Shown here piece by piece: positions 3,354-31,058 of a DNA stretch of 47,772 bases; position 1 is the first letter of the stretch, and every line of letters starts with the position of its first letter. The notes under the pieces are model-generated. The model did no database searches and was not told where the DNA came from. It saw nothing but the letters and a program-made list of their open reading frames with translations. Source of the stretch: Sedimentisphaerales bacterium (lineage in GTDB: Bacteria; Planctomycetota; Phycisphaerae; Sedimentisphaerales; Anaerobacaceae); NCBI GenBank assembly GCA_049644065.1, contig JBARRE010000118.1, positions 1 through 47,772 on the forward strand, read 5' to 3'. The position numbers were made by a program, and so were the translations under genes.

Positions 3354-5003
3354 TCAATACTCTTGCGGAGAATGCGTTTTGCTATGACACTCGAGATAAC
3401 ATCGGCCGTGAAATACTCCGGTGTCCTCGAATTCCAACCGTCCGGTCGCAGGATCCTGGCGCACAATGGTTGTGTCGAAATTTATCAAGTGACTGTTGTT
3501 CGAGCGTGTGCCCTGGACGGCACTTATGCCGTGAGCATCGTGACATGCCGAGCAGGGAATTTGCTTCTGCAGGTGTTCGGTATGCTTAGTAAAGCTTTCA
3601 TTGTTTAGAATGCTGTTTCGGCTGTGACATGTATAGCAAAGCTGATACGAATAATTGCTCTCTTGTGTATAATCGGATGTCTCGTACCGATAGGCGAGAA
3701 GATTCGGATAATTGGAGCCGTGGGGGCCTTTAGCGCCTGAAGCACTGTCTGAATTGTGGCAATCCGTGCAGTATATCATGGTCGCCACTGTCATTGGTGG
3801 TTTTAAGCTGGGAACGTTGCGGTTCACGCCGGGCGCCACAACAGGATGAAATGAGAAGGCGGATGGGTCGAATTCCAGACGGGTATTCGTTTGGGTTATT
3901 TGTCTGGTTATCGTAGATTGAGGTCTGTTCGGATTATCCGCGTGACATTTGAAGCAGACTTCATATTCGTACTGAGCTCTTTCGGTGCTGCCCCCGGAGG
4001 CTGTCACGCCGGAGACTCCGACCATCTGGCTATGCACGACAGGGGCCTTTGCAAGCGTATTTTGCACGGCATGCGGATTGTGACAATCGACACACTCGAC
4101 GTGTCTGATTGATGCCGACGGCGATTCTTTCAGATCGTGAATGCCCTCGTATCGACCTACATCGTGCCTGCTGAACTTTGACATCTCGGATTTCAAATTG
4201 GTCTTCGCTACTGAGCCATCGTGGCAGTTCAGGCAGTTGTCCTCTAATCTTATGAAATGAAGCAGCCGTTCATGTCCGCCGGCGGAATGTGGTCTGTGAC
4301 AACTTACACAACTGTTCTCTGCAACTGTGTCATACTCATTGCTTTGTAGATATGAATCATTTGCGACAGAAGCCAAAGCCGTTGAATTCGCGTGCGATGA
4401 AAGTCTCCATCCGGATAAATCATGACACGCCATACACATTCTTGAGAGGCGATTGGGCATTACCAGGAAGTTGCCGTACCGGTTATCATGCGGGTCATGA
4501 CAAGTCGTGCATTGTAGTTCGCTTAATCTGTCAAGCTTAAGCTGCTCCGGCAATGTCGAAGGCGGGCGTATCTGCACGTCTTCCGTTGACAGGGCCGTAG
4601 AGTAAACAAAACTGATTGGGTGGTCGTCCGAGAGATCGGTGCCGATGTTTGCTGCGCCAGGAGTTATATAAGCGCCGCCGGAAAAGCCGCCCCGTATCGA
4701 TTCGGTCAGGGCTACGGTCCCATCATGACAACTGAGACATAGTTTGCTCGAACCGGTAGGTTGGCCAACATTGGCTTCCAGCGAGGAGCTTTGGTAGATG
4801 TTGTAAACAGCCGAGGAAAGCTCGTGACTCCAGAGCGGAGTTCCTGCTAAAGCTCCGTGTGGAGTATGGCAGAAGCTACAGGCACTTCTCCCGGCGACGG
4901 CGGACAAGTCGTGCGGCGAACCCTCAATCTGAGCTAAGGTCGCTGGATTTGCAAATGCGAAAACCAAGAGCAGCACTATTAATTTAGTCAATCTGAGTTT
5001 CAT
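3354..5003 (-). CDS. Secreted multiheme c-type cytochrome (11 CxxCH + 1 CX3CH)
   Basis: It has a signal peptide (...NPATLAQ). The CxxCH motifs are CSFCH, CLSCH, CTTCH, CMACH, CVSCH, CLNCH, CVDCH, CFKCH, CTDCH, CYTCH and CSACH, plus CYLECH. Several are CxxCHxPH-type paired motifs. The N-terminal ~190 aa is paralogous to the tetraheme at 11431..12009. Confidence 0.9.
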   Translation of the reverse strand: MKLRLTKLIVLLLVFAFANPATLAQIEGSPHDLSAVAGRSACSFCHTPHGALAGTPLWSHELSSAVYNIYQSSSLEANVGQPTGSSKLCLSCHDGTVALTESIRGGFSGGAYITPGAANIGTDLSDDHPISFVYSTALSTEDVQIRPPSTLPEQLKLDRLSELQCTTCHDPHDNRYGNFLVMPNRLSRMCMACHDLSGWRLSSHANSTALASVANDSYLQSNEYDTVAENSCVSCHRPHSAGGHERLLHFIRLEDNCLNCHDGSVAKTNLKSEMSKFSRHDVGRYEGIHDLKESPSASIRHVECVDCHNPHAVQNTLAKAPVVHSQMVGVSGVTASGGSTERAQYEYEVCFKCHADNPNRPQSTITRQITQTNTRLEFDPSAFSFHPVVAPGVNRNVPSLKPPMTVATMIYCTDCHNSDSASGAKGPHGSNYPNLLAYRYETSDYTQESNYSYQLCYTCHSRNSILNNESFTKHTEHLQKQIPCSACHDAHGISAVQGTRSNNSHLINFDTTIVRQDPATGRLEFEDTGVFHGRCYLECHSKTHSPQEY

Positions 5004-5011
5004 TTGTCACA

Positions 5012-6070
5012 TCACTCCACGAGTTCAAACACCTGGATTCGTTTATTGAATGAGTCGGCAACGTAAATTCTGTTTCGATTATCGATGAAGATGCCTGCCG
5101 GCAACCAGAACTGCCCGGCCTGTGTTCCTTCCTGCCCGAAGGCCAAAAGTATCCGGCCCTGCTGGTCGAATACCTGCACATTTTCAAACTGTCTGTCTGT
5201 AACATAGATGTTGCCGAAACCATCCGTGGCAACGCCGCACGGATGGGCAAAGTTACCCGGCCGGTCTCCCTGCTGGCCGAACATTTGGAGGAACCTGTGT
5301 TCACGTGAAAATACCTGAATCCTGTAATTTAATGTGTCACTGACATACAATCTGCCGCTTTTATCCACCCACAAGTGTGTTGGAAAGTTGAACCTTCCGG
5401 ACCCCATACCTCTGGATCCGATTTGTTCGATGAACTTACCGCCTCTTGTAAATACCTCGATAGTATGGCCGACCGTATCTGCCACATACACTATCTCATC
5501 TTCCTGCGAATAGGCAATGCCGGACGGCCTTGTGAAGTGTTCACGTCCAAAAGAGAATATGAATTTTCCCTTTTTGTCAAAAACACACACTTTACGAAGT
5601 ATGCTATCGACAACATAGATCCTATTGCCTACTATTGTCAAACCGACCGGCTTGAGCAGTTTCTCCTGGCCAGCCAAGTCGGCGAATTGTTTATATGTGC
5701 GTTTGTTCAGATCGAAGACATGCACTGCCGCACCTGCGCTATCAGTAACAAACAATCTATCGCTCTGGTCAATAGCGACGGCGGAAGGGGCAACAAGAAC
5801 ACCGATTTTACTTTTGCCAAAGAGCAACTCACCCAAGCCCTGTGTCCACGATACTTTTGCTTTCAAGTCGGCTTCTGTCGATATCACTCCAAGATAAATT
5901 ATACGAGGCTTCTCCGGGGGGGCAGGCCAGGCAAGCTGTACATCAGGCCGTAAGGATAACTCGTCACGGTTACTACCACATCCATGGCAGAATGACAACA
6001 GTACAAGCGACCAAACGTATAATAACATAAAGACGAGATATTCTTTAGAGTATCTTTTTTTTGCTGCCAT
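5012..6070 (-). CDS. NHL-repeat six-bladed beta-propeller protein, exported (possible lipoprotein)
   Basis: It has six hYVxDxxNxRIQVF-type repeats, for example RIYVADSFNKRIQVFE, NIYVTDRQFENVQVFD and RLYVSDTLNYRIQVFS. The N terminus is hydrophobic with Cys residues (LLSFCHGCGS). It ends 8 nt before the next gene. Confidence 0.85.
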   Translation of the reverse strand: MAAKKRYSKEYLVFMLLYVWSLVLLSFCHGCGSNRDELSLRPDVQLAWPAPPEKPRIIYLGVISTEADLKAKVSWTQGLGELLFGKSKIGVLVAPSAVAIDQSDRLFVTDSAGAAVHVFDLNKRTYKQFADLAGQEKLLKPVGLTIVGNRIYVVDSILRKVCVFDKKGKFIFSFGREHFTRPSGIAYSQEDEIVYVADTVGHTIEVFTRGGKFIEQIGSRGMGSGRFNFPTHLWVDKSGRLYVSDTLNYRIQVFSREHRFLQMFGQQGDRPGNFAHPCGVATDGFGNIYVTDRQFENVQVFDQQGRILLAFGQEGTQAGQFWLPAGIFIDNRNRIYVADSFNKRIQVFELVE

Positions 6071-6090
6071 TTAACATTCCCTTGTACTGA

Positions 6091-8169
6091 TTAGAAAAAG
6101 CGTTTTAGCTGAAAATATAGAAGACTGCTATCGATTTCATCGTTTCTGCGATCGAGTACGTTAAACTCGACGCCTACGAGTATACTCAGTTGACGAAAAT
6201 TATACTTTAATTCAGAGCTAATTTGAAATCCTCTTGTTATGCCGAACCTTGTGTCGTCTTCATCCCGATAGTCGGCACGGGCTGAAATACTGTACTCGTT
6301 AGTCAATCTACTGATAAACTCAGCACCACTTTTAAAGAGTACAACATCCCGCTCATCCGGTTCACTAAAATCAAGCCAGTGATTTATGACTCTCATACTA
6401 ACGCTTGTATTGCTGTTTACAGGCCAACTGTATCTGCCTTGTATTTTCTTGCTCGTTGAGGGAATCTGAGTCGAGTCCTCTTTGCTGTACTCGGCCTGTA
6501 AGAAGAGGCCTTTATAAAGATAATCTGTGCCTACTGTATTGACTGTGTACTCATCGGGAGTAATTTCCATGATCTTCGCGCTGACATCTTCCTCTTGCCG
6601 TCGATGGGCATAATACAAAGACATACCATTTTTAAACCGCTCCCTGATGGTAAAGTTCTGACGAAGTGTATCTTCCTGCCTGTCCGGCTCGATGAGGACT
6701 GTATAATCTACTAAAATTTCCTGATCATTGCTAATGTTGGGAAGTGTGGTTCCCGGAATTATAATTTCTAACTGCACCTGTCTGTTGATTTCTTCGATGG
6801 TGTAATCGTCACCCAGGGTATATGTGTATAATCCGGTGCTGTCTGTCACCACAATGCTCGATATGTTAATGTTTGTTCTGTTCAAGGTTACAGGTAGCGG
6901 ATCATTAACAGTATGTGATTCGTCCGTCACGATTCCTCCACTGGTGCCTGATTGTTTGTTCAAACTTGCCGTATATGTGCTTAGCAATATCCCCCAGGGA
7001 TTCTTTTTTTGGTAATTAAAAGCAAGAATACCGCCATATTGCTCAAAATCTCCTTGGATGTCAAAGTAGGTTTTTGGCGGGATGTAGTCTTTTGATGTAA
7101 AGTCAGTTCTTGACGCAAAAATGTTTGCTGTTGTAACAAGGCTTTCATATAACCTGTGCTCGAAGCCGGCTTGGCCGCGAACCTCTTTATTCCTGTCTGC
7201 ATCTCGTTTGGAGTCTGTGAGCCGCAGTTCATAATTGGTCAGGAAATCGTCGAAGTGCTGCAGTCTTAAGCGTTCATCCAACTGAATATTTTCGAAGTCA
7301 AATGAGCCGGATTGATCGACATAGTTAAAAAATGAATCGAGCCTGTGTTGTTCGTCGCCGCCGAATATCAAATCGTGCAACATTGTGTACCGATCAGTAT
7401 CTGTTTCTATTGATGCACCCACGCTTCGTTGCGAGACCAACGTTCTGTCGATGTCAATACTCAGGTGCGATAATTCACCAAAATCATGATTGACAGAATA
7501 TCTGAATCGCTCATCATCTCTTTCGAAAAAGTCTCTTTCGAGGGACGATAGTCCATCCTGGGCGGTTTCGCTGGCAGTGTACTGGAATATCATCGGCCAA
7601 TCCCTGGACCTCAGCGAAAGCGACGCTCCCCTGTTATGTCTTTCAGTTCTCAAAGACCCCAAAAACTGCCGGGGGATCAGTTCCTCCGACTTGCTCGCAT
7701 AAAAGGTCGTTGGATATGATTTTCCTCTCAAGAATTGAGTAAATATGCTGTAATCATTAAGTGATTCACCGTGCCTGTCGGACTCTTCATCCGAGTTTAT
7801 GCTTTGCTGGGCAAGGCCAAAACCAAGAATGGCGTTGTAAAACAGAAGGTCCGGATGATATATGTCGCCTTCAGTTTTGAGCCTTACTCTTTCCTCAAAT
7901 ACTGTCGTTTCGCTCTTGCGTTTATTTTCACTTGTTCCCTGTTCGTCGGTACGATTCTCAGCGACAAATTCCAGCTCACCACGAATTCCTTCGTGTCTTA
8001 TAAAAGGTTTTTGTTTGCCGCCAACATTGACATTGCAGCCGGCAAGAGCAACCGCACTTAAGGTGCAAAATGCAAAAGCCCAGCGGATTCTTCCGGCAAG
8101 TATCCGCTTGTTAGATTCGAGTATTGTCTCATTATACGGCTGCTTCTGCAATGTTCTCGGTTCCTTCAC
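6091..8169 (-). CDS. Putative outer-membrane beta-barrel protein (692 aa) with a lipobox-type signal
   Basis: The N terminus has ...LSAVALAGC (L-A-G-C lipobox). The sequence shows amphipathic alternating strands throughout. The C terminus is ...LLYFQLKRFF, an aromatic-terminal beta-signal typical of OMPs. I recognise no known enzymatic motif. Confidence 0.6.
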   Translation of the reverse strand: MKEPRTLQKQPYNETILESNKRILAGRIRWAFAFCTLSAVALAGCNVNVGGKQKPFIRHEGIRGELEFVAENRTDEQGTSENKRKSETTVFEERVRLKTEGDIYHPDLLFYNAILGFGLAQQSINSDEESDRHGESLNDYSIFTQFLRGKSYPTTFYASKSEELIPRQFLGSLRTERHNRGASLSLRSRDWPMIFQYTASETAQDGLSSLERDFFERDDERFRYSVNHDFGELSHLSIDIDRTLVSQRSVGASIETDTDRYTMLHDLIFGGDEQHRLDSFFNYVDQSGSFDFENIQLDERLRLQHFDDFLTNYELRLTDSKRDADRNKEVRGQAGFEHRLYESLVTTANIFASRTDFTSKDYIPPKTYFDIQGDFEQYGGILAFNYQKKNPWGILLSTYTASLNKQSGTSGGIVTDESHTVNDPLPVTLNRTNINISSIVVTDSTGLYTYTLGDDYTIEEINRQVQLEIIIPGTTLPNISNDQEILVDYTVLIEPDRQEDTLRQNFTIRERFKNGMSLYYAHRRQEEDVSAKIMEITPDEYTVNTVGTDYLYKGLFLQAEYSKEDSTQIPSTSKKIQGRYSWPVNSNTSVSMRVINHWLDFSEPDERDVVLFKSGAEFISRLTNEYSISARADYRDEDDTRFGITRGFQISSELKYNFRQLSILVGVEFNVLDRRNDEIDSSLLYFQLKRFF

Positions 8170-8183
8170 TCAAATTGCTTTGG

Positions 8184-9326
8184 TTATTTCGATGTTTTAT
8201 TCCTGGCCAGGGAATTATCTATATCCGATATGTAACCTCGGATTGTCTTTGCCATCGATTCCGGGATTAAGCCGCCATTGAGAATTTTAACAAAACCCTC
8301 TCGGGCTTTTAAGAGTTGGCCGGTCCGGTAGAAGGCCATGCTGCTGTAATAGAGTTCAGCAATTTCTCTTGCCTGTTTGTCAGACTGGTTGTTATTCTCA
8401 AGCTGCTGTTCGTTCCTGTTTATAACGGAGTCGATCATTCCGAGTACGCGTACGATTTGTGCTCTCTCTTCGGCAGTGAAAGATCTACTGTCTTTGAACT
8501 TTCCAAGATATGCTCCGGCTTGCTGCAGCTCGCCCAGCTCGATTAATCTGCTGGTTTCCCGGAACACCTCAGATAAACTCTTGCTCTCGGGTAAAGTGCC
8601 AGATGCTGTTGGTCCTTGCTTGGGATAAATTTGTTCTTCCGGATCCTTCGCGGACTTAATATATTCTTGCGATGTTGCTTTGGCCACGTTTGCCCGGCCA
8701 AATCCATCGTTTGTCTCGGATGAGCTACCTTTTAAAAGCGCTTTGGCAGAACTTGCGTGAGCGTTGTGGCAGTCAGTACATGCAGATAATTGTTTTGGTA
8801 AATGTGCAGCTATTAATTCGATCGTGTCAATGTCATGGCATTGGTAGCAAAGTCCCGGTTCCGGTGCTATTAGCAGATGTTCGATTTTGCTTTTATGTGG
8901 ATTGTGGCAAAACAGGCACTGGCCAACCGCCACAGGCCCGTGAACAAATGATGCTGATGCAGTATAGTTAGTGTGACAATCGTAGCATAATTTTGGCACC
9001 GGGGCGGTTAAATACGTTTGGGAAGAAAAACTCCGTTGTTTGCGTTTGCCGTGACAAATGCTGCAGTCCTTGCGCGGCTCGTGTACATACCAGACCGGTG
9101 CCTGACCCATCTGTGCAAGCTCAGGAGAGTTTGGATCGAAAGATTCTCCCTGGAGGCCTTCCGGTCCCAGGGGTGGAACACCGTCAAATAAGAAGGTTAG
9201 AGCCTCATGGCGATCAACATCATCGCAGCTTACAAAAAATATGCCAAAAAAGACGAGCAGCATTAACCCGACTGATGCAGGTCTAATGCGAAATTTCATG
9301 ATGTAACGATTTTTAGAACCACACAT
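8184..9326 (-). CDS. Pentaheme c-type cytochrome, putative lipoprotein, with a C-terminal helical (TPR-like) module
   Basis: There are 5 CxxCH motifs: CSICH, CYDCH, CLFCH, CYQCH and CTDCH. The signal ends ...FFVSC. The likely true start is the internal MKFRIR. The C-terminal 58 aa (AELYYSSMAFYRTGQLLKAREGF...) also occurs, in two copies, in the protein encoded by the adjacent upstream gene (9409..11070). Confidence 0.85.
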   Translation of the reverse strand: MCGSKNRYIMKFRIRPASVGLMLLVFFGIFFVSCDDVDRHEALTFLFDGVPPLGPEGLQGESFDPNSPELAQMGQAPVWYVHEPRKDCSICHGKRKQRSFSSQTYLTAPVPKLCYDCHTNYTASASFVHGPVAVGQCLFCHNPHKSKIEHLLIAPEPGLCYQCHDIDTIELIAAHLPKQLSACTDCHNAHASSAKALLKGSSSETNDGFGRANVAKATSQEYIKSAKDPEEQIYPKQGPTASGTLPESKSLSEVFRETSRLIELGELQQAGAYLGKFKDSRSFTAEERAQIVRVLGMIDSVINRNEQQLENNNQSDKQAREIAELYYSSMAFYRTGQLLKAREGFVKILNGGLIPESMAKTIRGYISDIDNSLARNKTSK

Positions 9327-9408
9327 AACTATTAAATACAGAAGCTTAAAATATCTCTTGCCATCAGGCCTTCAAACTTAGCTTATATCATCTCACTATC
9401 TAATTTTA

Positions 9409-11070: not shown

Positions 11071-11430
11071 ACAAAGTGTACGTCTTTTTGACCGATAGGA
11101 ACTTTTTTGTCTTCGCCGAGTACGTCAATCTTAAAAGTGCTTAGGATTGTATTTATAGATTTGAAAAGGCTACTTTCATTCTCCTGTTCTCAGCCGGTCT
11201 ATAACTTTAGATACTTGGCATCAATCTTCATGGCTAATATGCCTGAAACAGTGGTTTCGAGGAAGGTATTGTAGCGAATACGTGAAGCCTTATGTCAAGC
11301 GCATTTAAGCACCTGACATAAGACATATGAAAGCCTGAATATCTTCGGACGTTATCCCTGCTCATGTCATATGGACAGCAGGCTTTTGAGTATCAGTTGA
11401 AACGCCGATATCACACAGCTTCACACCTGA

Positions 11431-12009
11431 TTATTTCATGTGACACATGCGGCACAGTTCGGGCCCATGCTGGCTGCCGTAATCGTAGCCCCGCAACAGG
11501 CTATCACCGATGCCGGATGTATGAACGTCATGGCAACTGCCGCACTGGATCTTACTCTCCGGATCGAGCAGATCTTCCAGGATTGTTCCTCCAAGCGTGC
11601 TTGCTTCTGAAGGATCTTTCAGAGCTCCATCCTGGGTAGCCAGGGCGGAATCGTACACGAAAGAGATTGGGTGTGAACTTGCCAGTTCATCAGAACCAAA
11701 GCTGTGGTCCGGATTCATCCATGCGAAATTGGGATTGGCACCATCGTGGCAACTCAGGCATAGTTTGGAATTGCCGCTGGGCTGGCCGTCTGCAGTGCCC
11801 TGGAATGTATCGCTGGAATACATCACAAATGTTATAGTTGTTTCGTTGCCGTTCCACAAGGGTACGCCCGGTAACGCTTCTGCGTTGTGCGGCGTGTGAC
11901 ATCCATTGCAGCCAAACAAGTCCGAATGTGCCAATGCCATTACGACCGCCGGTGTTAACAAACCGACAAGGACCACCAGTAAACGTAGTTTCAAAAAATT
12001 CTTATTCAT
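11431..12009 (-). CDS. Small secreted tetraheme c-type cytochrome (192 aa), OmcS/OmcE-like motif pattern
   Basis: It has a signal peptide (...VVMALA) and 4 CxxCH motifs (CNGCH, CLSCH, CGSCH, CRMCH). The last motif is 2 residues from the C terminus. The mature N terminus is HSDLFGCNGCHTPHN. Six additional His residues are available as distal ligands. Confidence 0.9.
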   Translation of the reverse strand: MNKNFLKLRLLVVLVGLLTPAVVMALAHSDLFGCNGCHTPHNAEALPGVPLWNGNETTITFVMYSSDTFQGTADGQPSGNSKLCLSCHDGANPNFAWMNPDHSFGSDELASSHPISFVYDSALATQDGALKDPSEASTLGGTILEDLLDPESKIQCGSCHDVHTSGIGDSLLRGYDYGSQHGPELCRMCHMK

Positions 12010-12351
12010 AACCTCTTCTCCAATTTCGACCTAATGGCTCATTTTACTCATCATGAGCGGTAAGCAAAATCTCTATAGTAACAAACGGTTAATTCATTTC
12101 TTCGGGACCATGAAATATGCTAACGCAAACATACCTCCAAACTCATCAACCGGCCGTATCCATTATAATCAATTTCCGTGCGTAATTCAAGATTTATGAC
12201 TGGTCAGAAAAAAGTTTTTTCCTCAGTCAGGTCATCAATTCCAGGATCCTCTTTCTATGCGCCTGAAGCCCATTGCCCTGGCCCATCATTCTCATTTACG
12301 AGAATAAGGGATGGTAAAATTACTATCGATGAGAAAATTTACTGCTCGCGA

Positions 12352-13374
12352 CTAATCAAAAATAAGCGTTAAGGCTTTGTAGTATGTCTCCATTGCTTTA
12401 TCATTCTGCTGCCTGGTCCGATAAATCTTTCCGAGTTCAAATAAAGCACGTGCGGATTTGGGATCGAGTGTTGTTGCCTCAAGAAGAAGTTTTTCAGCCG
12501 CGTCGAGTTCGCCCATTTGACGTTTTGCCCAGCCGGATATCAATAACAGTCTTGCTTTATCGAGACGGCTGGTGACACTCAGCGATTCTGTTATATCTAA
12601 AGCTGCTTTACTGCGGCCGGCTCTGCAGAAAAGCTCACCGAGCTCCAAAGCTGCTTCGGGGGAATTAGGATCGAGTTCCCTGGCTTTTTGGATTTCCGCA
12701 ACAGCCGATTCAAGGCGGCCTTTTTGCTCGAGTATTTTTGCCATTTGCAGATGCCTTTTGAGACGGGCGGTAATCGTGTCATTGGCGACAGTCTTGACGC
12801 GACCTGCGTCTTCCGGGGCCTTTTTCTGAGCAAGGCCGAGTGCCTGGTTCACATAAGCCCGGACCACCGGGGCAAAGTCGTATCCATGTCCCGCTTTTAT
12901 ACAAAGGACCTTATCATTTGTATCGGAGACGACAACAGTGGGAACAGCGATGATTCCAAACTTGCCCCAAAGCTTGTACTCCGAATCCAACAGGACATGG
13001 ACATTTTTTGCCGGGCCTTTTTTACTTGAAGGAAAATCTAAACCGTTAGGATCATTGACTGCGAAAACGGTCTCCAGACGTTCTGTATTTGTCCCGAGTT
13101 GACGGATAATCTCTTGAACGTCCTCTACGGCTCGGGCCGAGCGTTTATGCCCGGGGGACAAGAACACTACTATTAGAGCTTTGCTCTGGTTGTGCTTGTA
13201 GGTAAACACCTGTCCGGTTATGGTAGTGCCGGAGAATTCCGTCATTATATCGCCGACGGCAAACGTGTGCCGGTCAGCTTGTGCTGTAATGCACCATAGA
13301 GATTGTGCTATTACCAGCACATAGACCGCATAAGTGGCAATTCTACTTCTGACTCCCATTGTTGTCCCTTTCAA
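12352..13374 (-). CDS. Exported thioredoxin-fold (TlpA/ResA-like) domain lacking CxxC, fused to TPR repeats
   Basis: It has a signal peptide (...CITAQA). A redoxin-like segment, KALIVVFLSPGHKRSARAVEDV, has GHKR where the CxxC normally sits. The C-terminal half has TPR-like repeats (ELDPNSPEAALELGELF..., TLDPKSARALFELGKIY...). Confidence 0.65.
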   Translation of the reverse strand: MKGTTMGVRSRIATYAVYVLVIAQSLWCITAQADRHTFAVGDIMTEFSGTTITGQVFTYKHNQSKALIVVFLSPGHKRSARAVEDVQEIIRQLGTNTERLETVFAVNDPNGLDFPSSKKGPAKNVHVLLDSEYKLWGKFGIIAVPTVVVSDTNDKVLCIKAGHGYDFAPVVRAYVNQALGLAQKKAPEDAGRVKTVANDTITARLKRHLQMAKILEQKGRLESAVAEIQKARELDPNSPEAALELGELFCRAGRSKAALDITESLSVTSRLDKARLLLISGWAKRQMGELDAAEKLLLEATTLDPKSARALFELGKIYRTRQQNDKAMETYYKALTLIFD

Positions 13375-13385
13375 CCATCTCTTTC

Positions 13386-14729
13386 CTACTCGGCAGGCCA
13401 GGAAGGATAATCGACGGGATCCTTCCTATCGTAATCTTTCGGCAGGTGACAACCAGGTGCGCAGGAGCCGCCTGTCTGCTTTTTAGTAAATCCAATCGGT
13501 AGTGACCAGGTCCCAAATGTAACACTCTTACGAATGTGCTTGGGCAAGTTGCTGGCGTGTGTCGCATGGCATGAACGACATGTTCGGCCTCTCCGCTCCT
13601 TATTGACATGCAAATAGTGTAGATTCAAGCCGCCGTTCCTGAAATCGGTCAGGTCGGATGTTTCTTTTGTCATGACCAGGTCTTCGGAGTGACAGGCGAA
13701 GCAAAGTTCGTAATTCTCCTTGCGGAAGGGCGCATAAAACTGGGAGGGGTACTCCTTTGCCAAAAGGCGGAAATGCTCGCTGCCGTGTGTGACATGGCAT
13801 CCGCTGCAGTCGTTTTCCGCAACGGGACCGTGTAGAAATTCCTTGCCTTCAAGTTCATCGCTAAAGGCAGGCAGAACCTCGTCTTGGCCCAGATCGTGCG
13901 GCTTGTCATGGCAGGTCAGGCAAAGGCTTTTCGCATCCTTTTGCAGCAGAAACTTCACTGTCGAGGCATGCGGAGTATGACATTGCATGCAGCCGTCGAT
14001 ATCGCCCACGATGCTGTGCTGGTACGTGGAGTTTTCAGCGATTTTCTGGATATCCTTATGACAAGTGTAGCATAGAAAGGGCGCGAGGTTCTTGACCATC
14101 TTTGAGTTGCCCGCTCCGTGCGGATCATGACAGCCGATACAGTCGCTTTTTACAGGCTCGTGTACAAAATCGTATGTCTTCAACTCGTTTTTCATGATGA
14201 CATGGCAAGAGAAACAAAGCTCCGCTTGCTCAGCAACCAATAAGTCTTTATGGTCAGAGCTGTGCATCTCGTGACAGACAGTACATTCGCCGACGGCTGT
14301 CGGCCCATGCAGAAACGAGAGTCCTTCTGTAATTTTATGGCAGTTGTCGCAAAGAGCGGCGACCGTTTTTTCTTGAATCAGGAATTTGTTATCACTGCTG
14401 TGCGGGTCATGGCATTGCATGCAATCGCCTGTCTTCAGAGGTTCGTGAACGATCTTCTTGGCGGCTTGCTCCAAATGGCAGTATTCGCAAAGGTCTCTGC
14501 CTTTCCGCTCGAACTGCCAGGTGTGCTCTTCAGGTTTCAGTGGTTTGTGGCACGAAGTGCAGTCGCCGAGGCTGACTGGGCCGTGGACGTGTGCTTTTTG
14601 GCCGTACTCCGCATGACATTCTTCTGTAACGCATGTCTTTTGCAGCGAAGTCGGTTTTTCCACCGCGAAGCCGTTTGAGATTAATACACAGATTAACAAA
14701 ACTGCCGACTTATAAACTCTGTCTAACAT
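13386..14729 (-). CDS. Periplasmic multiheme c-type cytochrome (13 CxxCH + CX4CH + CX3CH)
   Basis: It has a signal peptide. The CxxCH motifs are CTSCH, CEYCH, CMQCH, CDNCH, CTVCH, CFSCH, CIGCH, CYTCH, CMQCH, CLTCH, CSGCH, CFACH and CRSCH, plus CVTEECH and CAPGCH. The repeated HGPxxxGxCxxCH units are typical of c3/c7-type polymers. Confidence 0.9.
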   Translation of the reverse strand: MLDRVYKSAVLLICVLISNGFAVEKPTSLQKTCVTEECHAEYGQKAHVHGPVSLGDCTSCHKPLKPEEHTWQFERKGRDLCEYCHLEQAAKKIVHEPLKTGDCMQCHDPHSSDNKFLIQEKTVAALCDNCHKITEGLSFLHGPTAVGECTVCHEMHSSDHKDLLVAEQAELCFSCHVIMKNELKTYDFVHEPVKSDCIGCHDPHGAGNSKMVKNLAPFLCYTCHKDIQKIAENSTYQHSIVGDIDGCMQCHTPHASTVKFLLQKDAKSLCLTCHDKPHDLGQDEVLPAFSDELEGKEFLHGPVAENDCSGCHVTHGSEHFRLLAKEYPSQFYAPFRKENYELCFACHSEDLVMTKETSDLTDFRNGGLNLHYLHVNKERRGRTCRSCHATHASNLPKHIRKSVTFGTWSLPIGFTKKQTGGSCAPGCHLPKDYDRKDPVDYPSWPAE

Positions 14730-14824
14730 TATGACACCCTCTCATACTCACTAATGCTCATAATACACTCGTGTTAATAGGTTGACTTCTTATAAAAGTT
14801 TCGTACATATATCAGTTCAACGGT

Positions 14825-15994
14825 CTACCTTGAAGACGCCTGCGTGCGTCTGTAAAGCAGTACTAACATTCCGGACTTTATTCTATAATGGATGGGCTTG
14901 TTTAACTCTAAAACGGCCTGGTGATTTGTGCTGTTTTGCTTAATCGTTGCAATAACAGCAGGGCGCAACAGCCTCTCAGATCCATTTGTATACTCGGTCT
15001 TAATAATTGCCCCGTCCATAACCTTTTCAACGCTGAAAGAGTATTCCATGTCTGCAAAAGGATAAGGGCGGCCAAGGACGGTCCTTTCTGCACGTTTCTT
15101 ACCTTTTTTAGACATAAGTAACCACGGCTTAGTTCCGCTTGCTACGACAAGAATGTGTTTTCCTTCAGCCCCGCGAAGGTCAAAATCACTGAATCTCATA
15201 CGCAAGGGAAGTTTTGTTTCTTCGTGCGGAGATGACGGAAATTTTGCCCAAAGCCATTGCTCGATTGTTTTTTTCCCGTCGTCAATGGCAACTTTAACAG
15301 CAGGATTGACCGGCTTTTGCGATTGACTGACTACCTTCTTTGTCTCAGTATCAATCGAATAATGCGGCAGATATTCTACGATCGTTACTCTGTATTTAGA
15401 CCTTGGTATACTTATTGTTTCTGCAATTTTAGCTACGCACTCGAACGGCTGGCTACCGTCCTCAGGTAAGATCGAAAGAATGCCGACCGCTCTGGAATGT
15501 GTAAGTCCTCGCATCAGCTTCTCAACGCCATTAGTATCATGGAGCCTTCTTATCGTAACACCTCCGATGCTGGAAGATATAGATTGCCTCGCAGGATCAC
15601 CCGAATGGAGCCACATCTCTTGCTTCATATTCTTGCCATTGATTAATAATTTTGCGGCAATTCCTCCGCTGGGATGCTTGACCACATTCGTTTCCCACTT
15701 CAGATCGGGGACATAATCTTCAAGCCTGATCTCGATGGGCGTACCCTTTATCGGCAGGACAGTGTCAAGCTTTTGAGGCTGGGTCTCATCGGAAACAATC
15801 AGCGGGAAACGCAGCCCTTCTCCGTCCAGGCGCATCTTGATGACAATTTCCCATGGTCCTCCAAGAAATGAGTGGTGCGGTCCTGCGGGGGCAGCCAGCG
15901 CCCGATCGACCAAAGTTAGGTTTGCAAATGCTGCTGTGGCGACAATACCCACGACAGCATTCCTAACAAATTTTTTATGTGCCATTGATCCCAT
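14825..15994 (-). CDS. Exported protein of unknown function (389 aa)
   Basis: It has a signal peptide (...DRALAAPAG) and no heme motif. It is tightly packed, 14 nt downstream of the NapC-type gene. The C-terminal segment LELNKPIHYRIKSGMLVLLYRR weakly recalls the ResB/Ccs1 periplasmic VNxPLxYxG motif (speculative). Confidence 0.55.
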   Translation of the reverse strand: MGSMAHKKFVRNAVVGIVATAAFANLTLVDRALAAPAGPHHSFLGGPWEIVIKMRLDGEGLRFPLIVSDETQPQKLDTVLPIKGTPIEIRLEDYVPDLKWETNVVKHPSGGIAAKLLINGKNMKQEMWLHSGDPARQSISSSIGGVTIRRLHDTNGVEKLMRGLTHSRAVGILSILPEDGSQPFECVAKIAETISIPRSKYRVTIVEYLPHYSIDTETKKVVSQSQKPVNPAVKVAIDDGKKTIEQWLWAKFPSSPHEETKLPLRMRFSDFDLRGAEGKHILVVASGTKPWLLMSKKGKKRAERTVLGRPYPFADMEYSFSVEKVMDGAIIKTEYTNGSERLLRPAVIATIKQNSTNHQAVLELNKPIHYRIKSGMLVLLYRRTQASSR

Positions 15995-16008
15995 ATCTGC
16001 AACTTACA

Positions 16009-17388
16009 CTATCTTGCTCCACTGACTATTTCATCTGCTCGGAGAAGCATTGCTTCGGTGTATTTGAAATTATGAACTCCCCAGCTTCCATCTGCTAATA
16101 CTGATTCGAGAATCGATTGGGCTTGTTCAATGCTCTGGTTTAACCGCGAGGCTGTTTGTCCGCTTGTTGTATTCCGAGCCCTGCTCTTGAGTTGATCCAG
16201 CTTGCGGCTGACTTGTTCGTGCATTGCTTTAATCTTATCCTGCCAGAAAGGTATATACTGTTGACCGGTTCCTTCCTCGTGGCACTTGTCGCAGGCATGA
16301 GGTACGGCTTTGGCAACTGTTCCGTGACTATCCAGGACGCCGGATTTTTGTGCCACCCGCTCGATATGACATCCGGTGCATTCCACGTGTGTGAGAAACA
16401 TCGGGCTGAGAACCCGATCCGTCTGCTGGGTCTGCATCGGATGCTGGGTTGAGTAGATAGTACGCTGGATCTGGTGAGTATCACTGTGACAGTTCTGACA
16501 ATCCATCATGACCGAAATGGATGCCACTTCCGTCTGGCCATGTGACACTTGTCCGTGGCACGCGAAACACTCGACCTTTTCATGATTCGTGTGGGTTTTA
16601 TGCAGTTCCACGCTGTCGGCATGCTGTTCCTTGCTGAAACTGTGGCAATTCAAGCACACGTTATCGTTTACCTTGCTTGTCTTGTGAATATCTTTTTTGT
16701 GACACGAATCTTCACAGCTTGCTTTGTAGGAAACAAACTCGGTATGGTTAATTGTTACCAGGCCTCGCTTAATGATCCTGTCGGGCACCTCGTGGCAATC
16801 TGTACAGCTCGTCTTAATCGCACTGCTGTCGGCCTCGCTGCCCTTGAGGAAGTGGCAGGTATAGCAGGCATCTTTGTTAACGGTGAAGTGCTGGTTTCCT
16901 TCGAAGTGGTTGTGGCAAGTGCCGCATGAAATTTTTATCCCATGGACGTCTTTGTCGATGTGATTTTCGTGGGTGAATTTGATGCCGGCGTAGTCGATTT
17001 CCGTTGAGACAAGCTCTTCATTGCTATGACACTCGGACCTCAGGCAGGAAGCGTCCTGAACGGTGGCATTTGGCTTTGTGCCAACCCGGCCAACTATGCA
17101 ATCGACCGCCTGGGCCAGCCCGTTAATTTTCCCTTTTACGTAACCGGTAAAGCCCGGCTGTAAATGACAGTCAAGGCAGTTGACCTTCGAGTGTTCGGAA
17201 CGTTTCCAACTGTCATAATGGTCATTCATGATGTGGCAGGAATTGCAAAAGCCCGGTTGTCCTGTAACAACAATTGCCCCTGCGGCAAAAAAGGATGCGC
17301 ATAAAACAAGAAGTAATATCTTTACTGGCCACTTCATTTGCCAGAAGATATTCCATCCGAATACAAATATCGCTTTGATATAATTCAC
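16009..17388 (-). CDS. Membrane-anchored NapC/NirT(CymA)-family multiheme cytochrome, extended (10 CxxCH + CX4CH + CX3CH); putative quinol dehydrogenase
   Basis: An N-terminal TM helix is followed by the family hallmark CNSCHIM...Y..W..S.H....C.DCH. Further motifs are CGTCH, CYTCH, CTDCH, CLNCH, CFACH, CQNCH, CTGCH and CDKCH, plus CLRSECH and CEDSCH. The C-terminal helix contains GSWGVHNF. An alternative start is M18 at 17337. Confidence 0.85.
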   Translation of the reverse strand: MNYIKAIFVFGWNIFWQMKWPVKILLLVLCASFFAAGAIVVTGQPGFCNSCHIMNDHYDSWKRSEHSKVNCLDCHLQPGFTGYVKGKINGLAQAVDCIVGRVGTKPNATVQDASCLRSECHSNEELVSTEIDYAGIKFTHENHIDKDVHGIKISCGTCHNHFEGNQHFTVNKDACYTCHFLKGSEADSSAIKTSCTDCHEVPDRIIKRGLVTINHTEFVSYKASCEDSCHKKDIHKTSKVNDNVCLNCHSFSKEQHADSVELHKTHTNHEKVECFACHGQVSHGQTEVASISVMMDCQNCHSDTHQIQRTIYSTQHPMQTQQTDRVLSPMFLTHVECTGCHIERVAQKSGVLDSHGTVAKAVPHACDKCHEEGTGQQYIPFWQDKIKAMHEQVSRKLDQLKSRARNTTSGQTASRLNQSIEQAQSILESVLADGSWGVHNFKYTEAMLLRADEIVSGAR

Positions 17389-18654: not shown

Positions 18655-18663
18655 TGAGCACTC

Positions 18664-19919: not shown

Positions 19920-19924
19920 TATTA

Positions 19925-23879: not shown

Positions 23880-24108
23880 ATGTTATCATTCTGACTCTAT
23901 TGCCAATTCAAGTTTTCACTTGATCTTTGTCTATTAGATTATTATACATAAAGACTATAATGGAAAACTGCAGAAAAGTAAAGGCAAAGCCCAACAAAGA
24001 TCGCTCACACTTCCATAGAGACATGGCTTGCAGGGCAAAGTTTCTCATTTGTAAGAAAAGCAAAAAAAACTCAACTTTCTTCTATAATATTTCCAATTTA
24101 GGATAAGA

Positions 24109-31026: not shown

Positions 31027-31058
31027 AGAAAAACCTGTAATAAAAATTCTAATAGAGA

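What the first reader, a model, noticed from the sequence alone, without database searches (positions are those of the whole stretch)
3354..17388. Ten-gene, single-strand multiheme cytochrome / NHL-propeller / beta-barrel cluster: candidate non-canonical extracellular electron transfer machine
Ten consecutive minus-strand genes are separated by gaps of 8-360 nt. In order, they encode:
- a NapC/NirT-type membrane-anchored cytochrome (12 heme motifs), the classic quinol-oxidising entry module;
- an exported unknown protein;
- a periplasmic cytochrome with 15 heme motifs;
- a CxxC-less Trx-fold/TPR protein;
- a small tetraheme;
- an NHL propeller;
- a pentaheme putative lipoprotein;
- a 692-aa putative OM beta-barrel;
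- a second NHL propeller;
- a cytochrome with 12 heme motifs.

I count 43 CxxCH plus 5 CX3CH/CX4CH motifs in this run. A further 10 are in the convergent decaheme at 858..3131.

The parts list (quinol dehydrogenase, periplasmic carrier, barrel, lipoprotein or secreted cytochromes) parallels porin-cytochrome conduits such as MtrCAB and Geobacter Pcc. However, there is no MtrA-like decaheme next to the barrel. The propeller and TPR-like accessory proteins instead recall the accessory genes found beside Geobacter omcS. The combination and order look unlike the described systems.
Basis: partly seen in the sequence, partly recalled or inferred. Interest (0 to 1): 0.85.

Follow-up and report, generated by a model that had tools for sequence, protein, structure and literature searches.

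The report
OmcE-type cytochrome nanowire gene cluster
This is a real ten-gene cluster in a Planctomycetota (Phycisphaerae) genome that most likely moves respiratory electrons across the outer membrane, possibly onto a cytochrome filament; it is a lineage-specific version of a widespread, recently described OmcE-type system, not a new kind of machine.

Summary
Ten co-directional genes sit at the stated coordinates with 43 CxxCH and 5 CX3/4CH motifs, against about 1 CxxCH expected by chance.

The claim that the cluster is unlike described systems does not hold:
- The 192-aa tetraheme, and the N-terminal 195 residues of the 549-aa 12-heme protein, are homologs of OmcE, the Geobacter nanowire subunit (PDB 7tfs, 9yuq).
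- The six downstream genes are: OmcE-like tetraheme, NHL propeller, MtrA-like pentaheme, about 680-aa beta-barrel, NHL propeller, OmcE-headed dodecaheme. In this or a permuted order they recur in many bacterial lineages.
- This set matches the "minimal omcE cluster" of a 2025 preprint and resembles the Desulfovibrio ferrophilus cluster of 2018.

The four upstream genes form a feeder module:
- an NrfH/NapC-type membrane 12-heme cytochrome;
- an MtrA-like 15-heme cytochrome, so an MtrA relative is present;
- a TPR protein with a weakly Trx-like N-domain.

Only the first two are confined to Phycisphaerae among the loci fetched.

No catalytic-enzyme signature was found. What may be new is the phylum, the feeder module, and the conserved OmcE-headed dodecaheme as a candidate filament base or cap. 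Filament formation and electron direction are inferred, not shown.

The parts
16009..17388 (-). Membrane-anchored NapC/NirT/NrfH-type cytochrome with 12 heme motifs (10 CxxCH + Cx4CH + Cx3CH). Proposed quinol-oxidising entry point.
   Evidence: PF03264 at 37.4 bits, above its cutoff. NrfH TIGR03153 at 1e-15, below its cutoff. PDB NrfH 2j7a_C at 1.2e-6. One N-terminal hydrophobic helix at residues 18-45. The variant motifs are conserved in 4 of 4 homologs.
14825..15994 (-). Exported 389-aa protein homologous to the large periplasmic loop of ResB/Ccs1 (system II cytochrome c biogenesis), but without the ResB transmembrane helices. Possible dedicated heme or apocytochrome handling factor.
   Evidence: No Pfam, NCBIfam or PDB hit for the protein itself. 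292 representative homologs were found; the longer ones carry PF05140 ResB. BLASTP against P0502 gives E 6e-14, aligned to the loop between that protein's TM3 and TM4.
13386..14729 (-). Periplasmic MtrA/DmsE-like cytochrome with 15 heme motifs (13 CxxCH + Cx4CH + Cx3CH).
   Evidence: TIGR03508 at 2.6e-41, below its cutoff. MtrA 6r2q_A at 5.7e-13. The 13+1+1 pattern is conserved in homologs from Desulfobulbaceae, Phycisphaerae and other lineages.
12352..13374 (-). Exported protein with a weakly Trx-like N-domain lacking CxxC and a C-terminal TPR domain. Possible chaperone or scaffold.
   Evidence: Several TPR families score above their cutoffs. The Trx-like assignment is weak: PDB thioredoxin-like hits at E about 0.2, with the CxxC position replaced by SPGHKRS, and faint AhpC/Redoxin hits in the L004 ortholog.
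11431..12009 (-). OmcE-like tetraheme cytochrome (E4). Candidate nanowire subunit. It is flanked by the two largest intergenic gaps (342 and 360 nt).
   Evidence: PDB OmcE 7tfs at 9e-12 and D. soudanensis OmcE 9yuq at 1e-10. The four CxxCH motifs and His28, 41, 113 and 163 are 100% conserved in 121 homologs.
11286..11325 (-). Strong RNA hairpin about 105 nt downstream of the omcE-like stop codon. Possible transcript stabiliser or attenuator.
   Evidence: Folding energy -26.6 kcal/mol. A hairpin of similar strength but different sequence lies at the same place in L004. Function is inferred only.
9409..11070 (-). NHL beta-propeller, putative lipoprotein (FSGC), with a C-terminal TPR-like domain of about 150 aa.
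   Evidence: PF01436 and PF17170. Paralog of the 352-aa NHL protein (28% identity, E 4e-32). The C-terminal domain is shared with the pentaheme protein.
8184..9326 (-). Pentaheme putative lipoprotein (FVSC) with an MtrA-like heme segment and the same C-terminal TPR-like domain. Encoded immediately upstream of the barrel.
   Evidence: 5 CxxCH. MtrA 6r2q_A at 6.5e-10. DmsE family at 4e-15, below its cutoff. 34 of 43 homologs have exactly 5 hemes. 35% identity (E 9e-23) to the C-terminus of the 553-aa NHL protein.
6091..8169 (-). All-beta protein of about 680 aa, a putative large outer-membrane barrel. It has a lipobox (LAGC) and a C-terminal Phe. Proposed sheath, anchor or usher.
   Evidence: The AF2 model (pLDDT 63.8) shows about 28 long antiparallel strands. 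Top Foldseek hits are 22-26-strand outer-membrane barrels (Cir, LptD, BtuB), E 2e-6 to 3e-4, but TM-scores are only about 0.2. G44, C45 and F692 are invariant in 50 homologs. There is no Pfam or PDB sequence hit.
5012..6070 (-). NHL six-bladed beta-propeller, putative lipoprotein. Always paired with the following dodecaheme gene.
   Evidence: PF01436 at 3.6e-27. The NHL-E12 pair occurs in 57 of the 84 loci. Homologous to the NHL gene beside Geobacter omcE (4e-50).
3354..5003 (-). Secreted dodecaheme (E12): an OmcE-like 4-heme module (residues about 26-195) fused to an 8-heme extension. Candidate filament base, cap or surface terminal cytochrome.
   Evidence: The family profile matches OmcE 7tfs at 1.3e-31 over residues 2-195 and 9yuq at 3.5e-27; the C-terminal part matches OcwA only weakly (2.8e-4). 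H31, H49, H128, H172 and all heme motifs are invariant in 48 homologs. 55 of 59 homologs across lineages have 11 CxxCH + 1 Cx3CH.
858..3131 (+). Convergent MtrC/OmcA-family decaheme with a Sec signal and no lipobox. A neighbour that may be functionally linked.
   Evidence: PF22113 at 4.4e-23, above its cutoff. TIGR03507 at 8e-40, below its cutoff. It is not conserved next to the cluster in L004; a smaller MtrC-like gene occupies the same position in L001.
17554..23041 (-). Upstream six-gene Nqr-like NADH:quinone oxidoreductase operon on the same strand, 165 nt away. A plausible electron source for the quinone pool; this is context only.
   Evidence: NqrF, E, D, C, B and A-like family hits. The adjacency is not conserved in L004.

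Best explanation
This is a Phycisphaerae (Planctomycetota) version of the omcE-type extracellular electron transfer and cytochrome nanowire cluster.

Proposed electron path (inferred):
- NADH is oxidised by the adjacent Nqr-like complex, which reduces the quinone pool.
- The membrane-anchored NrfH/NapC-type 12-heme cytochrome (459 aa) oxidises quinol.
- Electrons pass to the periplasmic MtrA-like 15-heme cytochrome (447 aa).
- They then reach the MtrA-like pentaheme lipoprotein (380 aa), associated with or threaded into the roughly 28-strand barrel (692 aa).
- On the outer face they reach the secreted dodecaheme (549 aa). Its N-terminal OmcE module could dock onto, nucleate or cap a polymer of the OmcE-like tetraheme (192 aa).
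- In that polymer, the invariant N-terminal histidine would ligate a heme of the neighbouring subunit, as in OmcE.

Proposed accessory roles (inferred):
- The two NHL propeller lipoproteins, each genetically paired with one OmcE-fold cytochrome, act as scaffolds or assembly chaperones.
- The ResB-loop-like protein and the Trx-like/TPR protein act as cluster-dedicated maturation or holding factors.

What is shown: gene content, homologies, motif conservation and synteny across lineages.

What is inferred: protein localisation, the order of electron transfer, polymerisation, and the direction of electron flow.
For: OmcE homology:
- The tetraheme matches OmcE 7tfs at 9e-12 and 9yuq at 1e-10.
- The profile of the 549-aa family matches 7tfs at 1.3e-31.
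- All four CxxCH motifs and four distal His are invariant in both families.
- OmcE filaments depend on a His from one subunit ligating a heme of the neighbouring subunit (PMC9473688).

Match to a published cluster:
- The literature definition of the minimal omcE cluster is two multiheme cytochromes, two beta-propeller lipoproteins, OmcE and a large beta-barrel. The window's core fits this.

Synteny:
- All ten genes are in the same order in Planctomycetes bacterium B3_Pla, where the barrel is 73% identical.
- The six-gene core is found in identical order in 13 of the 84 loci examined.
- A further 22 loci have the barrel-NHL-E12 run.
- A further 22 have the NHL-E12 pair.
- These loci come from Phycisphaerae, Verrucomicrobiota, Bacteroidota, Ignavibacteria, Calditrichota, Chlorobiota, Acidobacteriota, Nitrospirota, Myxococcota, Zixibacteria, Gammaproteobacteria and Desulfobulbaceae.

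Shared parts with Geobacter omcE loci:
- They contain a homologous NHL gene (4e-50) and an MtrA-like cytochrome (7e-72).
- They also contain a 740-806-aa ORF remotely related to this barrel family.

Individual components:
- The barrel model is all-beta and resembles large outer-membrane barrels.
- MtrA-like segments are present.
- An NrfH-type anchor is present.
- Heme synthesis genes lie nearby.
Against: - No experimental data exist for any Planctomycetota member. Polymerisation of the 192-aa protein is unproven.
- Its N-terminal region is shortened (LAHSDLFGC instead of xKHDLS...20 aa...C), so equivalence of His28 with the trans-subunit ligand rests on alignment only.
- The barrel model has only moderate confidence (pLDDT 63.8, pTM 0.46) and Foldseek TM-scores of about 0.2.
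- Direct profile-profile homology to the Geobacter omcE-cluster barrel is weak (probability 59-67%).
- The AF2 model of the 549-aa protein failed (pLDDT 33.5).
- In two complete Phycisphaerales genomes the modules are not contiguous. One genome was looked up via its barrel and showed NHL-cyt5-barrel-NHL-E12 without a tetraheme gene. The other was looked up via its tetraheme and showed only an NHL-tetraheme pair. The ten genes are therefore not an obligate unit.
- The pentaheme lipoprotein has Asp at position +2, which signals inner-membrane retention in E. coli.
- In Geobacter, OmcE is not essential for Fe(III) oxide reduction or current production (statement in PMC13194489).
Confidence: 0.65

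Rival explanations
1. A porin-cytochrome conduit without a filament. The barrel sheathes the pentaheme or 15-heme MtrA-like cytochrome, as MtrB sheathes MtrA. The dodecaheme and the tetraheme are monomeric or small-oligomer surface cytochromes, analogous to MtrC and OmcA.
For: - MtrA-like segments occur in the 380-aa and 447-aa proteins.
- The barrel is of MtrB-like size.
- An MtrC-family decaheme lies next door.
- The preprint itself restricts its nanowire candidates to OmcE homologs with the characteristic neighbouring genes, implying that not every OmcE-like protein need polymerise.
- The N-terminal segment of the window's tetraheme is shortened.
Against: - The invariant eight-histidine pattern, including the N-terminal His, is exactly that of the filament-forming OmcE proteins.
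- The gene neighbourhood meets the criteria used in the literature to pick nanowire-forming OmcE homologs.
- The barrel family profile has no detectable sequence similarity to any PDB chain, MtrB included.
Confidence: 0.2
2. The same machinery runs inward. It would take up electrons from Fe(II), reduced minerals, cathodes or partner cells into the quinone pool or periplasmic reductases, as proposed for the D. ferrophilus IS5 NHL/cytochrome clusters.
For: - D. ferrophilus clusters with 12- and 14-heme periplasmic cytochromes, extracellular cytochromes and two NHL propellers are induced under electron-donor starvation (PMC5815863).
- Multiheme chains are generally reversible.
- The same core occurs in putative sulfur or iron oxidisers (Sedimenticola, Thioalkalispiraceae, Woeseiaceae loci).
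Against: - Adjacency to an Nqr-type NADH:quinone reductase and an NrfH-type quinol dehydrogenase fits outward flow, although this adjacency is not conserved.
- Homology to the DFE proteins was not tested here.
- Sequence alone cannot decide direction.
Confidence: 0.25
3. The dodecaheme (549 aa), not the tetraheme, is the polymerising unit. It would form an OmcS-style elaborated wire with an OmcE core plus extra hemes, or the two proteins would co-polymerise.
For: - OmcS shares the four-heme core of OmcE and adds further hemes (PMC9473688).
- The 549-aa family keeps the complete OmcE module, including the N-terminal His31.
- It is far more abundant in databases than the barrel family: at least 7,973 hits against 301.
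Against: - There is no structural precedent.
- The structure model failed.
- In most loci a separate tetraheme gene is retained beside it, which suggests distinct roles.
Confidence: 0.1
4. A periplasmic catalytic multiheme enzyme system (of the nitrite, sulfite, tetrathionate or hydroxylamine type) with accessory proteins.
For: Weak local similarities only: the C-terminus of the 459-aa protein to MccA (1.2e-5) and to 6i5b (9e-7); the 549-aa protein to MccA and OcwA at E about 0.01.
Against: - No CxxCK motif.
- No NrfA, HAO, MccA or OTR family hit in Pfam or NCBIfam.
- The strongest matches are to electron-transfer cytochromes (OmcE, MtrA, NrfH).
- The barrel and lipoprotein context argues against a soluble enzyme.
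Confidence: 0.03

Closest known systems
omcE gene cluster / OmcE cytochrome nanowire of Geobacter sulfurreducens and Desulfuromonas soudanensis (PDB 7tfs, 9yuq; bioRxiv 10.1101/2025.10.22.684050)
   Same: - An OmcE-homologous tetraheme with all four CxxCH motifs and four distal His.
- A homologous NHL beta-propeller gene beside it.
- A homologous MtrA-like cytochrome.
- A large beta-barrel gene.
- The overall 'two multiheme cytochromes + two propellers + OmcE + barrel' parts list.
   Different: - The published survey lists five phyla and not Planctomycetota.
- The window adds an OmcE-headed dodecaheme. This is absent from the Geobacter loci fetched, and no such candidate was seen in OmcE operons by the preprint's authors.
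- It adds a 5-heme lipoprotein, an NrfH-type 12-heme cytochrome, a ResB-loop-like protein and a Trx-like/TPR protein.
- Barrel homology to the Geobacter ORF is only remote.
- There is no adjacent glycosylation island.
- The N-terminal segment of the tetraheme is shortened.
Desulfovibrio ferrophilus IS5 outer-membrane cytochrome clusters DFE_448-451 and DFE_461-465 (Deng et al. 2018, PMC5815863; the 'DFE' set of FeGenie)
   Same: - A combination of 12-14-heme periplasmic 'MtrA-like' cytochromes, predicted extracellular multiheme cytochromes and two NHL-repeat propellers.
- Broad distribution in sediment bacteria.
- A FeGenie 'DFE' category is among the functions scored for the Planctomycetota MAGs of PMC10732223.
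   Different: - Sequence homology to the DFE proteins could not be tested here because the sequences are not held.
- The 2018 description did not recognise OmcE homology. It likened the NHL propellers to the barrel proteins of iron reducers and did not report a barrel gene.
- The proposed direction there is electron uptake.
MtrCAB / Pcc porin-cytochrome conduits
   Same: - Functional logic: a periplasmic MtrA-like multiheme cytochrome, a large outer-membrane barrel and surface cytochromes.
- MtrA-like sequence segments in two of the proteins.
- An MtrC-family decaheme encoded next door.
   Different: - The barrel family has no detectable sequence similarity to MtrB or to any other PDB chain.
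- The cytochrome adjacent to the barrel has 5 hemes, not 10.
- NHL propellers and OmcE-fold cytochromes are not part of Mtr or Pcc systems.
omcS-companion (osc) cluster of G. sulfurreducens (Shen et al. 2025, as summarised in PMC13194489)
   Same: Concept: a nanowire subunit gene embedded among accessory genes proposed to serve folding, secretion and morphology, with a porin-like mounting model.
   Different: - No OmcS-type hexaheme is present; the cytochromes hit OmcE only.
- Homology of the window's accessory proteins to OscD-H was not tested because the sequences are not held.
Peatland 'EET1 porin-scaffold-cytochrome' clusters of Acidobacteriota (bioRxiv 10.64898/2026.05.27.727921)
   Same: - Syntenic clusters of multiheme cytochromes, including ones modelled as OmcE-like and MtrA-like, with outer-membrane porins in uncultured lineages.
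- Transcriptionally active in situ.
   Different: - A different phylum.
- Gene-by-gene correspondence was not tested.
- That study does not interpret its clusters as nanowire systems.

Membership tests
omcE-type cytochrome nanowire cluster | Tetraheme cytochrome homologous to OmcE, with four CxxCH motifs and four conserved distal histidines | tested here: met
   7tfs at 9e-12 and 9yuq at 1e-10. H28, H41, H113, H163 and all heme motifs are 100% conserved in 121 homologs.
omcE-type cytochrome nanowire cluster | Large outer-membrane beta-barrel gene in the cluster | tested here: met
   The model is all-beta with about 28 strands. Foldseek top hits are outer-membrane barrels. The C-terminal Phe is invariant. 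Confidence in the fold is moderate.
omcE-type cytochrome nanowire cluster | Barrel homologous to the barrel of Geobacter omcE loci | tested here: inconclusive
   Direct hhalign gives probability 59-67%, E 5e-5 to 9e-5, over 149 C-terminal columns. The link is transitive: window family to OmcE-adjacent 'type-2' barrels at 99.8% (E 6e-30), and type-2 to Geobacter at 94.7% (E 6e-8).
omcE-type cytochrome nanowire cluster | Beta-propeller lipoprotein genes (two) | tested here: met
   There are two NHL propellers. Lipobox-like motifs (FSGC, LSFC) were read from the sequence. The NHL gene next to Geobacter omcE is homologous (4e-50). Lipidation itself was not tested.
omcE-type cytochrome nanowire cluster | Two or more additional multiheme cytochromes | tested here: met
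   5-, 12-, 12- and 15-heme proteins are present. The 15-heme protein is homologous to the MtrA-like cytochrome of Geobacter omcE loci (7e-72).
omcE-type cytochrome nanowire cluster | Subunit polymerises into an extracellular heme filament with trans-subunit His ligation | not testable with these tools
   This needs cryo-EM or AF3 with hemes. Only conservation of the candidate His was shown.
MtrCAB porin-cytochrome complex | MtrB-family barrel | tested here: not met
   The barrel profile against all PDB sequences, which include the MtrCAB entry 6r2q, found no cytochrome-conduit barrel. There is no Pfam or NCBIfam porin family hit.
MtrCAB porin-cytochrome complex | MtrA/DmsE-family decaheme adjacent to the barrel | tested here: inconclusive
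   The adjacent protein has 5 hemes with an MtrA-like segment (6.5e-10). A 15-heme MtrA-like protein lies four genes upstream (5.7e-13). Both score below the TIGR03508 cutoff.
MtrCAB porin-cytochrome complex | MtrC/OmcA-family decaheme lipoprotein | tested here: inconclusive
   The convergent 757-aa decaheme passes the PF22113 cutoff but not that of TIGR03507. It has no lipobox, and its position is not conserved.
NapC/NirT/NrfH quinol dehydrogenases | N-terminal membrane helix followed by an NrfH/NapC-type heme module | tested here: met
   PF03264 scores above its gathering cutoff. NrfH 2j7a_C at 1.2e-6. A helix is predicted at residues 18-45. Quinol oxidation itself was not tested. Eight extra hemes are atypical.
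Catalytic multiheme enzymes (NrfA, HAO, MccA, OTR) | Family-level homology and active-site motif (CxxCK, Tyr cross-link context, or CX15CH) | tested here: not met
   There is no CxxCK in any cytochrome. There are no family hits; only weak local matches.
D. ferrophilus DFE_448-451 / 461-465 cluster | Sequence homology of the cytochromes and NHL proteins to the DFE proteins | not tested
The resemblance rests on the published description.
omcS / osc cluster | OmcS-type hexaheme subunit | tested here: not met
   PDB searches with all the cluster cytochromes returned OmcE, MtrA and NrfH, but no OmcS chain.

The most novel reading that the evidence does not exclude
The conserved 549-aa dodecaheme may be the missing terminal adaptor of OmcE-type wires. 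Its OmcE-fold head, with the invariant N-terminal His31, would join one end of a tetraheme polymer by the same trans-subunit His-heme ligation. Its 8-heme tail would couple the wire to the barrel-associated pentaheme, or to minerals if it sits at the tip.

This would answer the question of what lies at the base or tip, which the 2025 OmcE preprint raises and leaves unanswered for Desulfuromonadia operons.

In the Phycisphaerae version, a ResB-loop-like protein and a CxxC-less Trx-like/TPR protein would additionally act as cluster-dedicated cytochrome maturation or holding factors. The system would also be the first cytochrome nanowire system in Planctomycetota.
Probability: 0.3. Interest if true: 0.75.

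Novelty: new variant of a known kind. Interest (0 to 1): 0.5.

Why it matters
They would be a common module in sediment and subsurface bacteria, including abundant uncultured Phycisphaerae usually regarded as polysaccharide fermenters. That would change how their role in iron, manganese and humic cycling is modelled.
- The widely conserved barrel-NHL-dodecaheme triplet gives a concrete, testable candidate for how such filaments are anchored, initiated or terminated.
- The ResB-loop-like and Trx-like/TPR genes suggest dedicated maturation helpers for heme-dense proteins.
- Cultured carriers of the core identified here (Desulforhopalus sp. IMCC35007, Geothrix fermentans DSM 14018) make these ideas experimentally accessible.

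Tried and rejected
- AF2 model of the 549-aa protein from 48 homologs failed (pLDDT 33.5). No fold comparison was attempted.
- The barrel AF2 model is only moderate. Foldseek gives outer-membrane barrels in general but low TM-scores, so no specific family can be assigned.
- The barrel profile against PDB sequences found nothing.
- Direct hhalign of the window barrel family against the Geobacter omcE-locus ORFs is weak even after adding type-2 barrels.
- Rfam found no RNA family in the window.
- The promoter and terminator scan was not above shuffles in a useful way. There is one sigma-70-like site about 150 nt upstream of the omcE-like gene and no canonical terminator.
- Three sources were not held: Shen et al. 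2025 (osc), Wang et al. 2022 (OmcE) and the Deng 2018 supplements. Homology to the Osc and DFE proteins is therefore untested.
- The catalytic-enzyme reading was rejected: no CxxCK and no family hits.
- The idea that the ten genes are one obligate unit was rejected. Two complete Phycisphaerales genomes show the modules apart.
- The idea that Nqr adjacency is part of the system was not supported by L004.
- The crude lipobox regex on homologs is unreliable because ORF starts are uncertain. It suggests that the barrel lipobox is lineage-specific.

Full report
**1. Observation**

The ten minus-strand ORFs are present at exactly the reported coordinates, with intergenic gaps of 8-360 nt. Translation gives the reported heme-motif counts:

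| Protein | CxxCH | Variant motifs |
|---|---|---|
| 459 aa | 10 | Cx3CH + Cx4CH |
| 447 aa | 13 | Cx3CH + Cx4CH |
| 192 aa | 4 | none |
| 380 aa | 5 | none |
| 549 aa | 11 | Cx3CH |
| Total | 43 | 5 |

- The convergent gene at 858-3131 has 10 CxxCH.
- A six-frame count finds 45 CxxCH in 3354-17388, against 0.88 +/- 0.92 in shuffles and 3 in the other 30 kb.
- The variant motifs are conserved in homologs and so are probably real heme sites.

**2. Identity of the parts**

Cytochromes:
- The 192-aa tetraheme matches the OmcE nanowire subunit of G. sulfurreducens (PDB 7tfs, E 9e-12) and the D. soudanensis OmcE bundle subunit (9yuq, 1e-10).
- The first ~195 residues of the 549-aa protein match the same two chains (3e-19 and 2e-18).
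- A profile of 48 homologs of the 549-aa protein raises this to 1.3e-31 over essentially the whole of OmcE. The remaining 8-heme part matches only OcwA and NrfB weakly.
- In an alignment with both solved OmcE proteins, the four CxxCH motifs and three distal His are invariant.
- The fourth distal His lies in an N-terminal H-D/S-L motif. This motif precedes heme 1 in nearly all small homologs across lineages.
- Among 121 close homologs of the window's tetraheme, His28, 41, 113 and 163 are 100% conserved, while two other His are not.
- OmcE and OmcS filaments are held together in part by a His of one subunit ligating a heme of the next (PMC9473688).
- The 447-aa protein matches MtrA of the MtrCAB structure (6r2q_A, 5.7e-13) and the DmsE family (2.6e-41, below its cutoff).
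- The 380-aa pentaheme matches MtrA as well (6.5e-10).
- The 459-aa protein has one N-terminal helix and an NrfH/NapC-type module.

Non-cytochrome proteins:
- The two NHL proteins are paralogs.
- The 553-aa NHL protein and the pentaheme share a C-terminal TPR-like domain of about 150 aa.
- The 692-aa protein has no family or PDB sequence match.
- Its AF2 model (pLDDT 63.8) is made of about 28 long antiparallel strands.
- Its best structural neighbours are 22-26-strand outer-membrane barrels, but TM-scores are low.
- The protein ends in an invariant Phe.
- The 389-aa 'unknown' is a stand-alone homolog of the periplasmic loop of a subset of ResB/Ccs1 proteins.
- The 340-aa protein has a clear TPR domain and only a weakly Trx-like N-domain without CxxC.

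**3. Taxon and context**

- Close homologs of the barrel, the tetraheme and the dodecaheme come from Planctomycetota / Phycisphaerae / Sedimentisphaerales MAGs.
- Upstream on the same strand lies an Nqr-like operon.
- Further along lie siroheme-route heme synthesis genes.

**4. Conservation**

- In Planctomycetes bacterium B3_Pla all ten genes occur in the same order.
- In two complete Phycisphaerales genomes the modules were seen apart. A look-up from the barrel found NHL-pentaheme-barrel-NHL-dodecaheme. A look-up from the tetraheme in the other genome found an NHL-tetraheme pair.
- A scan of one genome per GTDB species with an OmcE alignment found more than 563 matches; 80 loci were fetched.
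- Searching the window's proteins against these loci shows a recurrent core: tetraheme - NHL - pentaheme - barrel - NHL - dodecaheme.

| Pattern | Loci (of 84) |
|---|---|
| Full six-gene core, same order | 13 |
| Barrel - NHL - dodecaheme run only | 22 |
| NHL - dodecaheme pair only | 22 |

- In Bacteroidota, Ignavibacteria, Calditrichota and Chlorobiota the two sub-modules are permuted.
- 55 of 59 dodecaheme homologs have exactly 11 CxxCH + 1 Cx3CH, 75 of 79 small homologs have 4 hemes, and 34 of 43 pentaheme homologs have 5.
- The MtrA-like 15-heme gene and the Trx-like/TPR gene also accompany the core in Desulfobulbaceae and other lineages.
- The NrfH-type gene and the ResB-loop-like gene were seen only in Phycisphaerae loci.
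- The Geobacter loci have MtrA-like cytochrome(s), one detected NHL gene, OmcE, a 740-806-aa ORF and then glycosyltransferases, as published. They have no dodecaheme.
- The window's barrel family is clearly homologous to the barrels that follow omcE in Geothrix/Acidobacteriota-type loci (probability 99.8%). It is only remotely related to the Geobacter ORFs: 94.7% via the intermediate family, 59-67% directly.

**5. Comparison with the literature**

- It finds such homologs in five phyla, not including Planctomycetota.
- It discusses the barrel as a secretion pore or anchor.
- It notes that no OmcE-like tip candidate with extra hemes is encoded in the operons it examined.
- Deng et al. 2018 described D. 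ferrophilus clusters with 12- and 14-heme periplasmic cytochromes, extracellular cytochromes and two NHL propellers.
- A FeGenie-derived 'DFE' category appears among the functions scored for Oslofjord Planctomycetota MAGs.
- A 2026 peat preprint reports syntenic porin-cytochrome clusters, with some cytochromes modelled as OmcE-like, in Acidobacteriota and Verrucomicrobiota.
- Only these two preprints in the held library use the term 'OmcE-like'.

The kind of system is therefore known. Its presence in Phycisphaerae as an OmcE cluster, the feeder module, and the OmcE-headed dodecaheme as a conserved partner are not described in what I could read.

**6. Mechanism (inferred)**

- Quinol is oxidised by the NrfH-type 12-heme cytochrome.
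- Electrons pass through the periplasm via the MtrA-like 15-heme protein.
- They cross the outer membrane through a barrel-associated pentaheme.
- At the surface they reach the dodecaheme, whose OmcE head could seed, cap or anchor a tetraheme polymer.
- The NHL propellers are each genetically paired with an OmcE-fold cytochrome and would be assembly scaffolds.
- The ResB-loop-like and Trx-like/TPR proteins would be maturation or holding factors.
- The tetraheme gene sits between the two long intergenic regions. It has a sigma-70-like site upstream and a strong 3' hairpin, also present in L004. This is consistent with separate, higher expression of a major subunit, but it is weak evidence.
- Electron direction cannot be read from sequence.

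**7. Rivals**

- A non-filamentous porin-cytochrome conduit.
- The same machinery used for electron uptake.
- Polymerisation of the dodecaheme itself.
- A catalytic enzyme system. This is disfavoured: there is no CxxCK and no NrfA, HAO, MccA or OTR family hit.

**8. Verdict**

- The finding is real and correctly recognised as EET machinery.
- It is not a new kind of system. It is a lineage-specific variant of the omcE-type nanowire / NHL-cytochrome cluster.
- Interest is moderate. It rises if the dodecaheme proves to be the filament's terminal adaptor.

Noticed in passing
window 14825-15994 (-): The 'unknown' exported protein is a stand-alone homolog of the periplasmic loop of ResB/Ccs1 cytochrome c biogenesis proteins. 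It has no ResB transmembrane helices, and no Pfam model covers it. About 292 representative homologs exist.
   Followed up: yes
window 8184-9326 and 9409-11070 (-): The pentaheme lipoprotein and the 553-aa NHL lipoprotein share a C-terminal TPR-like domain of about 150 aa (35% identity; a nearly identical IAELYYSSMAFYRTGQL motif). Homologs in other lineages are shorter, which suggests a lineage-specific shared docking domain.
   Followed up: partly
window ~11286-11325 (-); L004 ~6975-7035: A strong stem-loop (about -26 kcal/mol) lies roughly 105-160 nt after the omcE-like stop codon in both the window and L004, with different sequences. It may be a transcript-stabilising or attenuating element for the subunit gene.
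   Followed up: partly
window 17554-23041 (-): A six-gene Nqr-like operon. Its NqrA-like subunit also matches RnfC and carries two 4Fe-4S motifs, so it looks like an Nqr/Rnf intermediate.
   Followed up: partly
window 23400-34875: Heme supply genes. These are two NirDL/AhbAB-like genes, two radical SAM genes (AhbC/D-like), glutamyl-tRNA reductase, a uroporphyrin methylase/HemD fusion and a CcsA/HemX-like membrane protein. An Rrf2 regulator and a sigma-54 two-component pair are interspersed.
   Followed up: partly
window 858-3131 (+): A convergent MtrC/OmcA-family decaheme with a Gly-rich linker and a Sec signal but no lipobox. L001 has a smaller MtrC-like gene in the equivalent position; L004 has a CcsA-like gene instead.
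   Followed up: partly
window 6091-8169 (-), residues 410-491: An insert in the barrel (short strands in the model) weakly matches an NCBIfam phage tail tube protein model (1.3e-8, below its cutoff). The barrel also carries an invariant lipobox (LAGC) that most homologs in other lineages seem to lack.
   Followed up: no
window 12352-13374 (-): Among the weak PDB hits of the Trx-like N-domain is SOQ1, a Trx-like + NHL protein. The co-occurrence of Trx-like and NHL modules here parallels SOQ1 and NHLRC2.
   Followed up: no
window 39412-43830 (-): A 1472-aa protein combining a BamB/PQQ-like beta-propeller, a methyltransferase domain and a C-terminal malectin domain.
   Followed up: no
L079 (JBHHWA010000004.1, 'Thermoplasmata archaeon'): A contig binned as an archaeon carries the bacterial-type NHL-OmcE-barrel-NHL-dodecaheme cluster. 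This is probably a binning error; otherwise it would be a transfer.
   Followed up: no
L064 (Geothrix fermentans DSM 14018), L080 (Desulforhopalus sp. IMCC35007), L007 (Geobacter argillaceus): Cultured strains carry OmcE-type clusters. Desulforhopalus has the full six-gene core plus the 15-heme and Trx-like/TPR genes. These strains are useful for experiments.
   Followed up: partly
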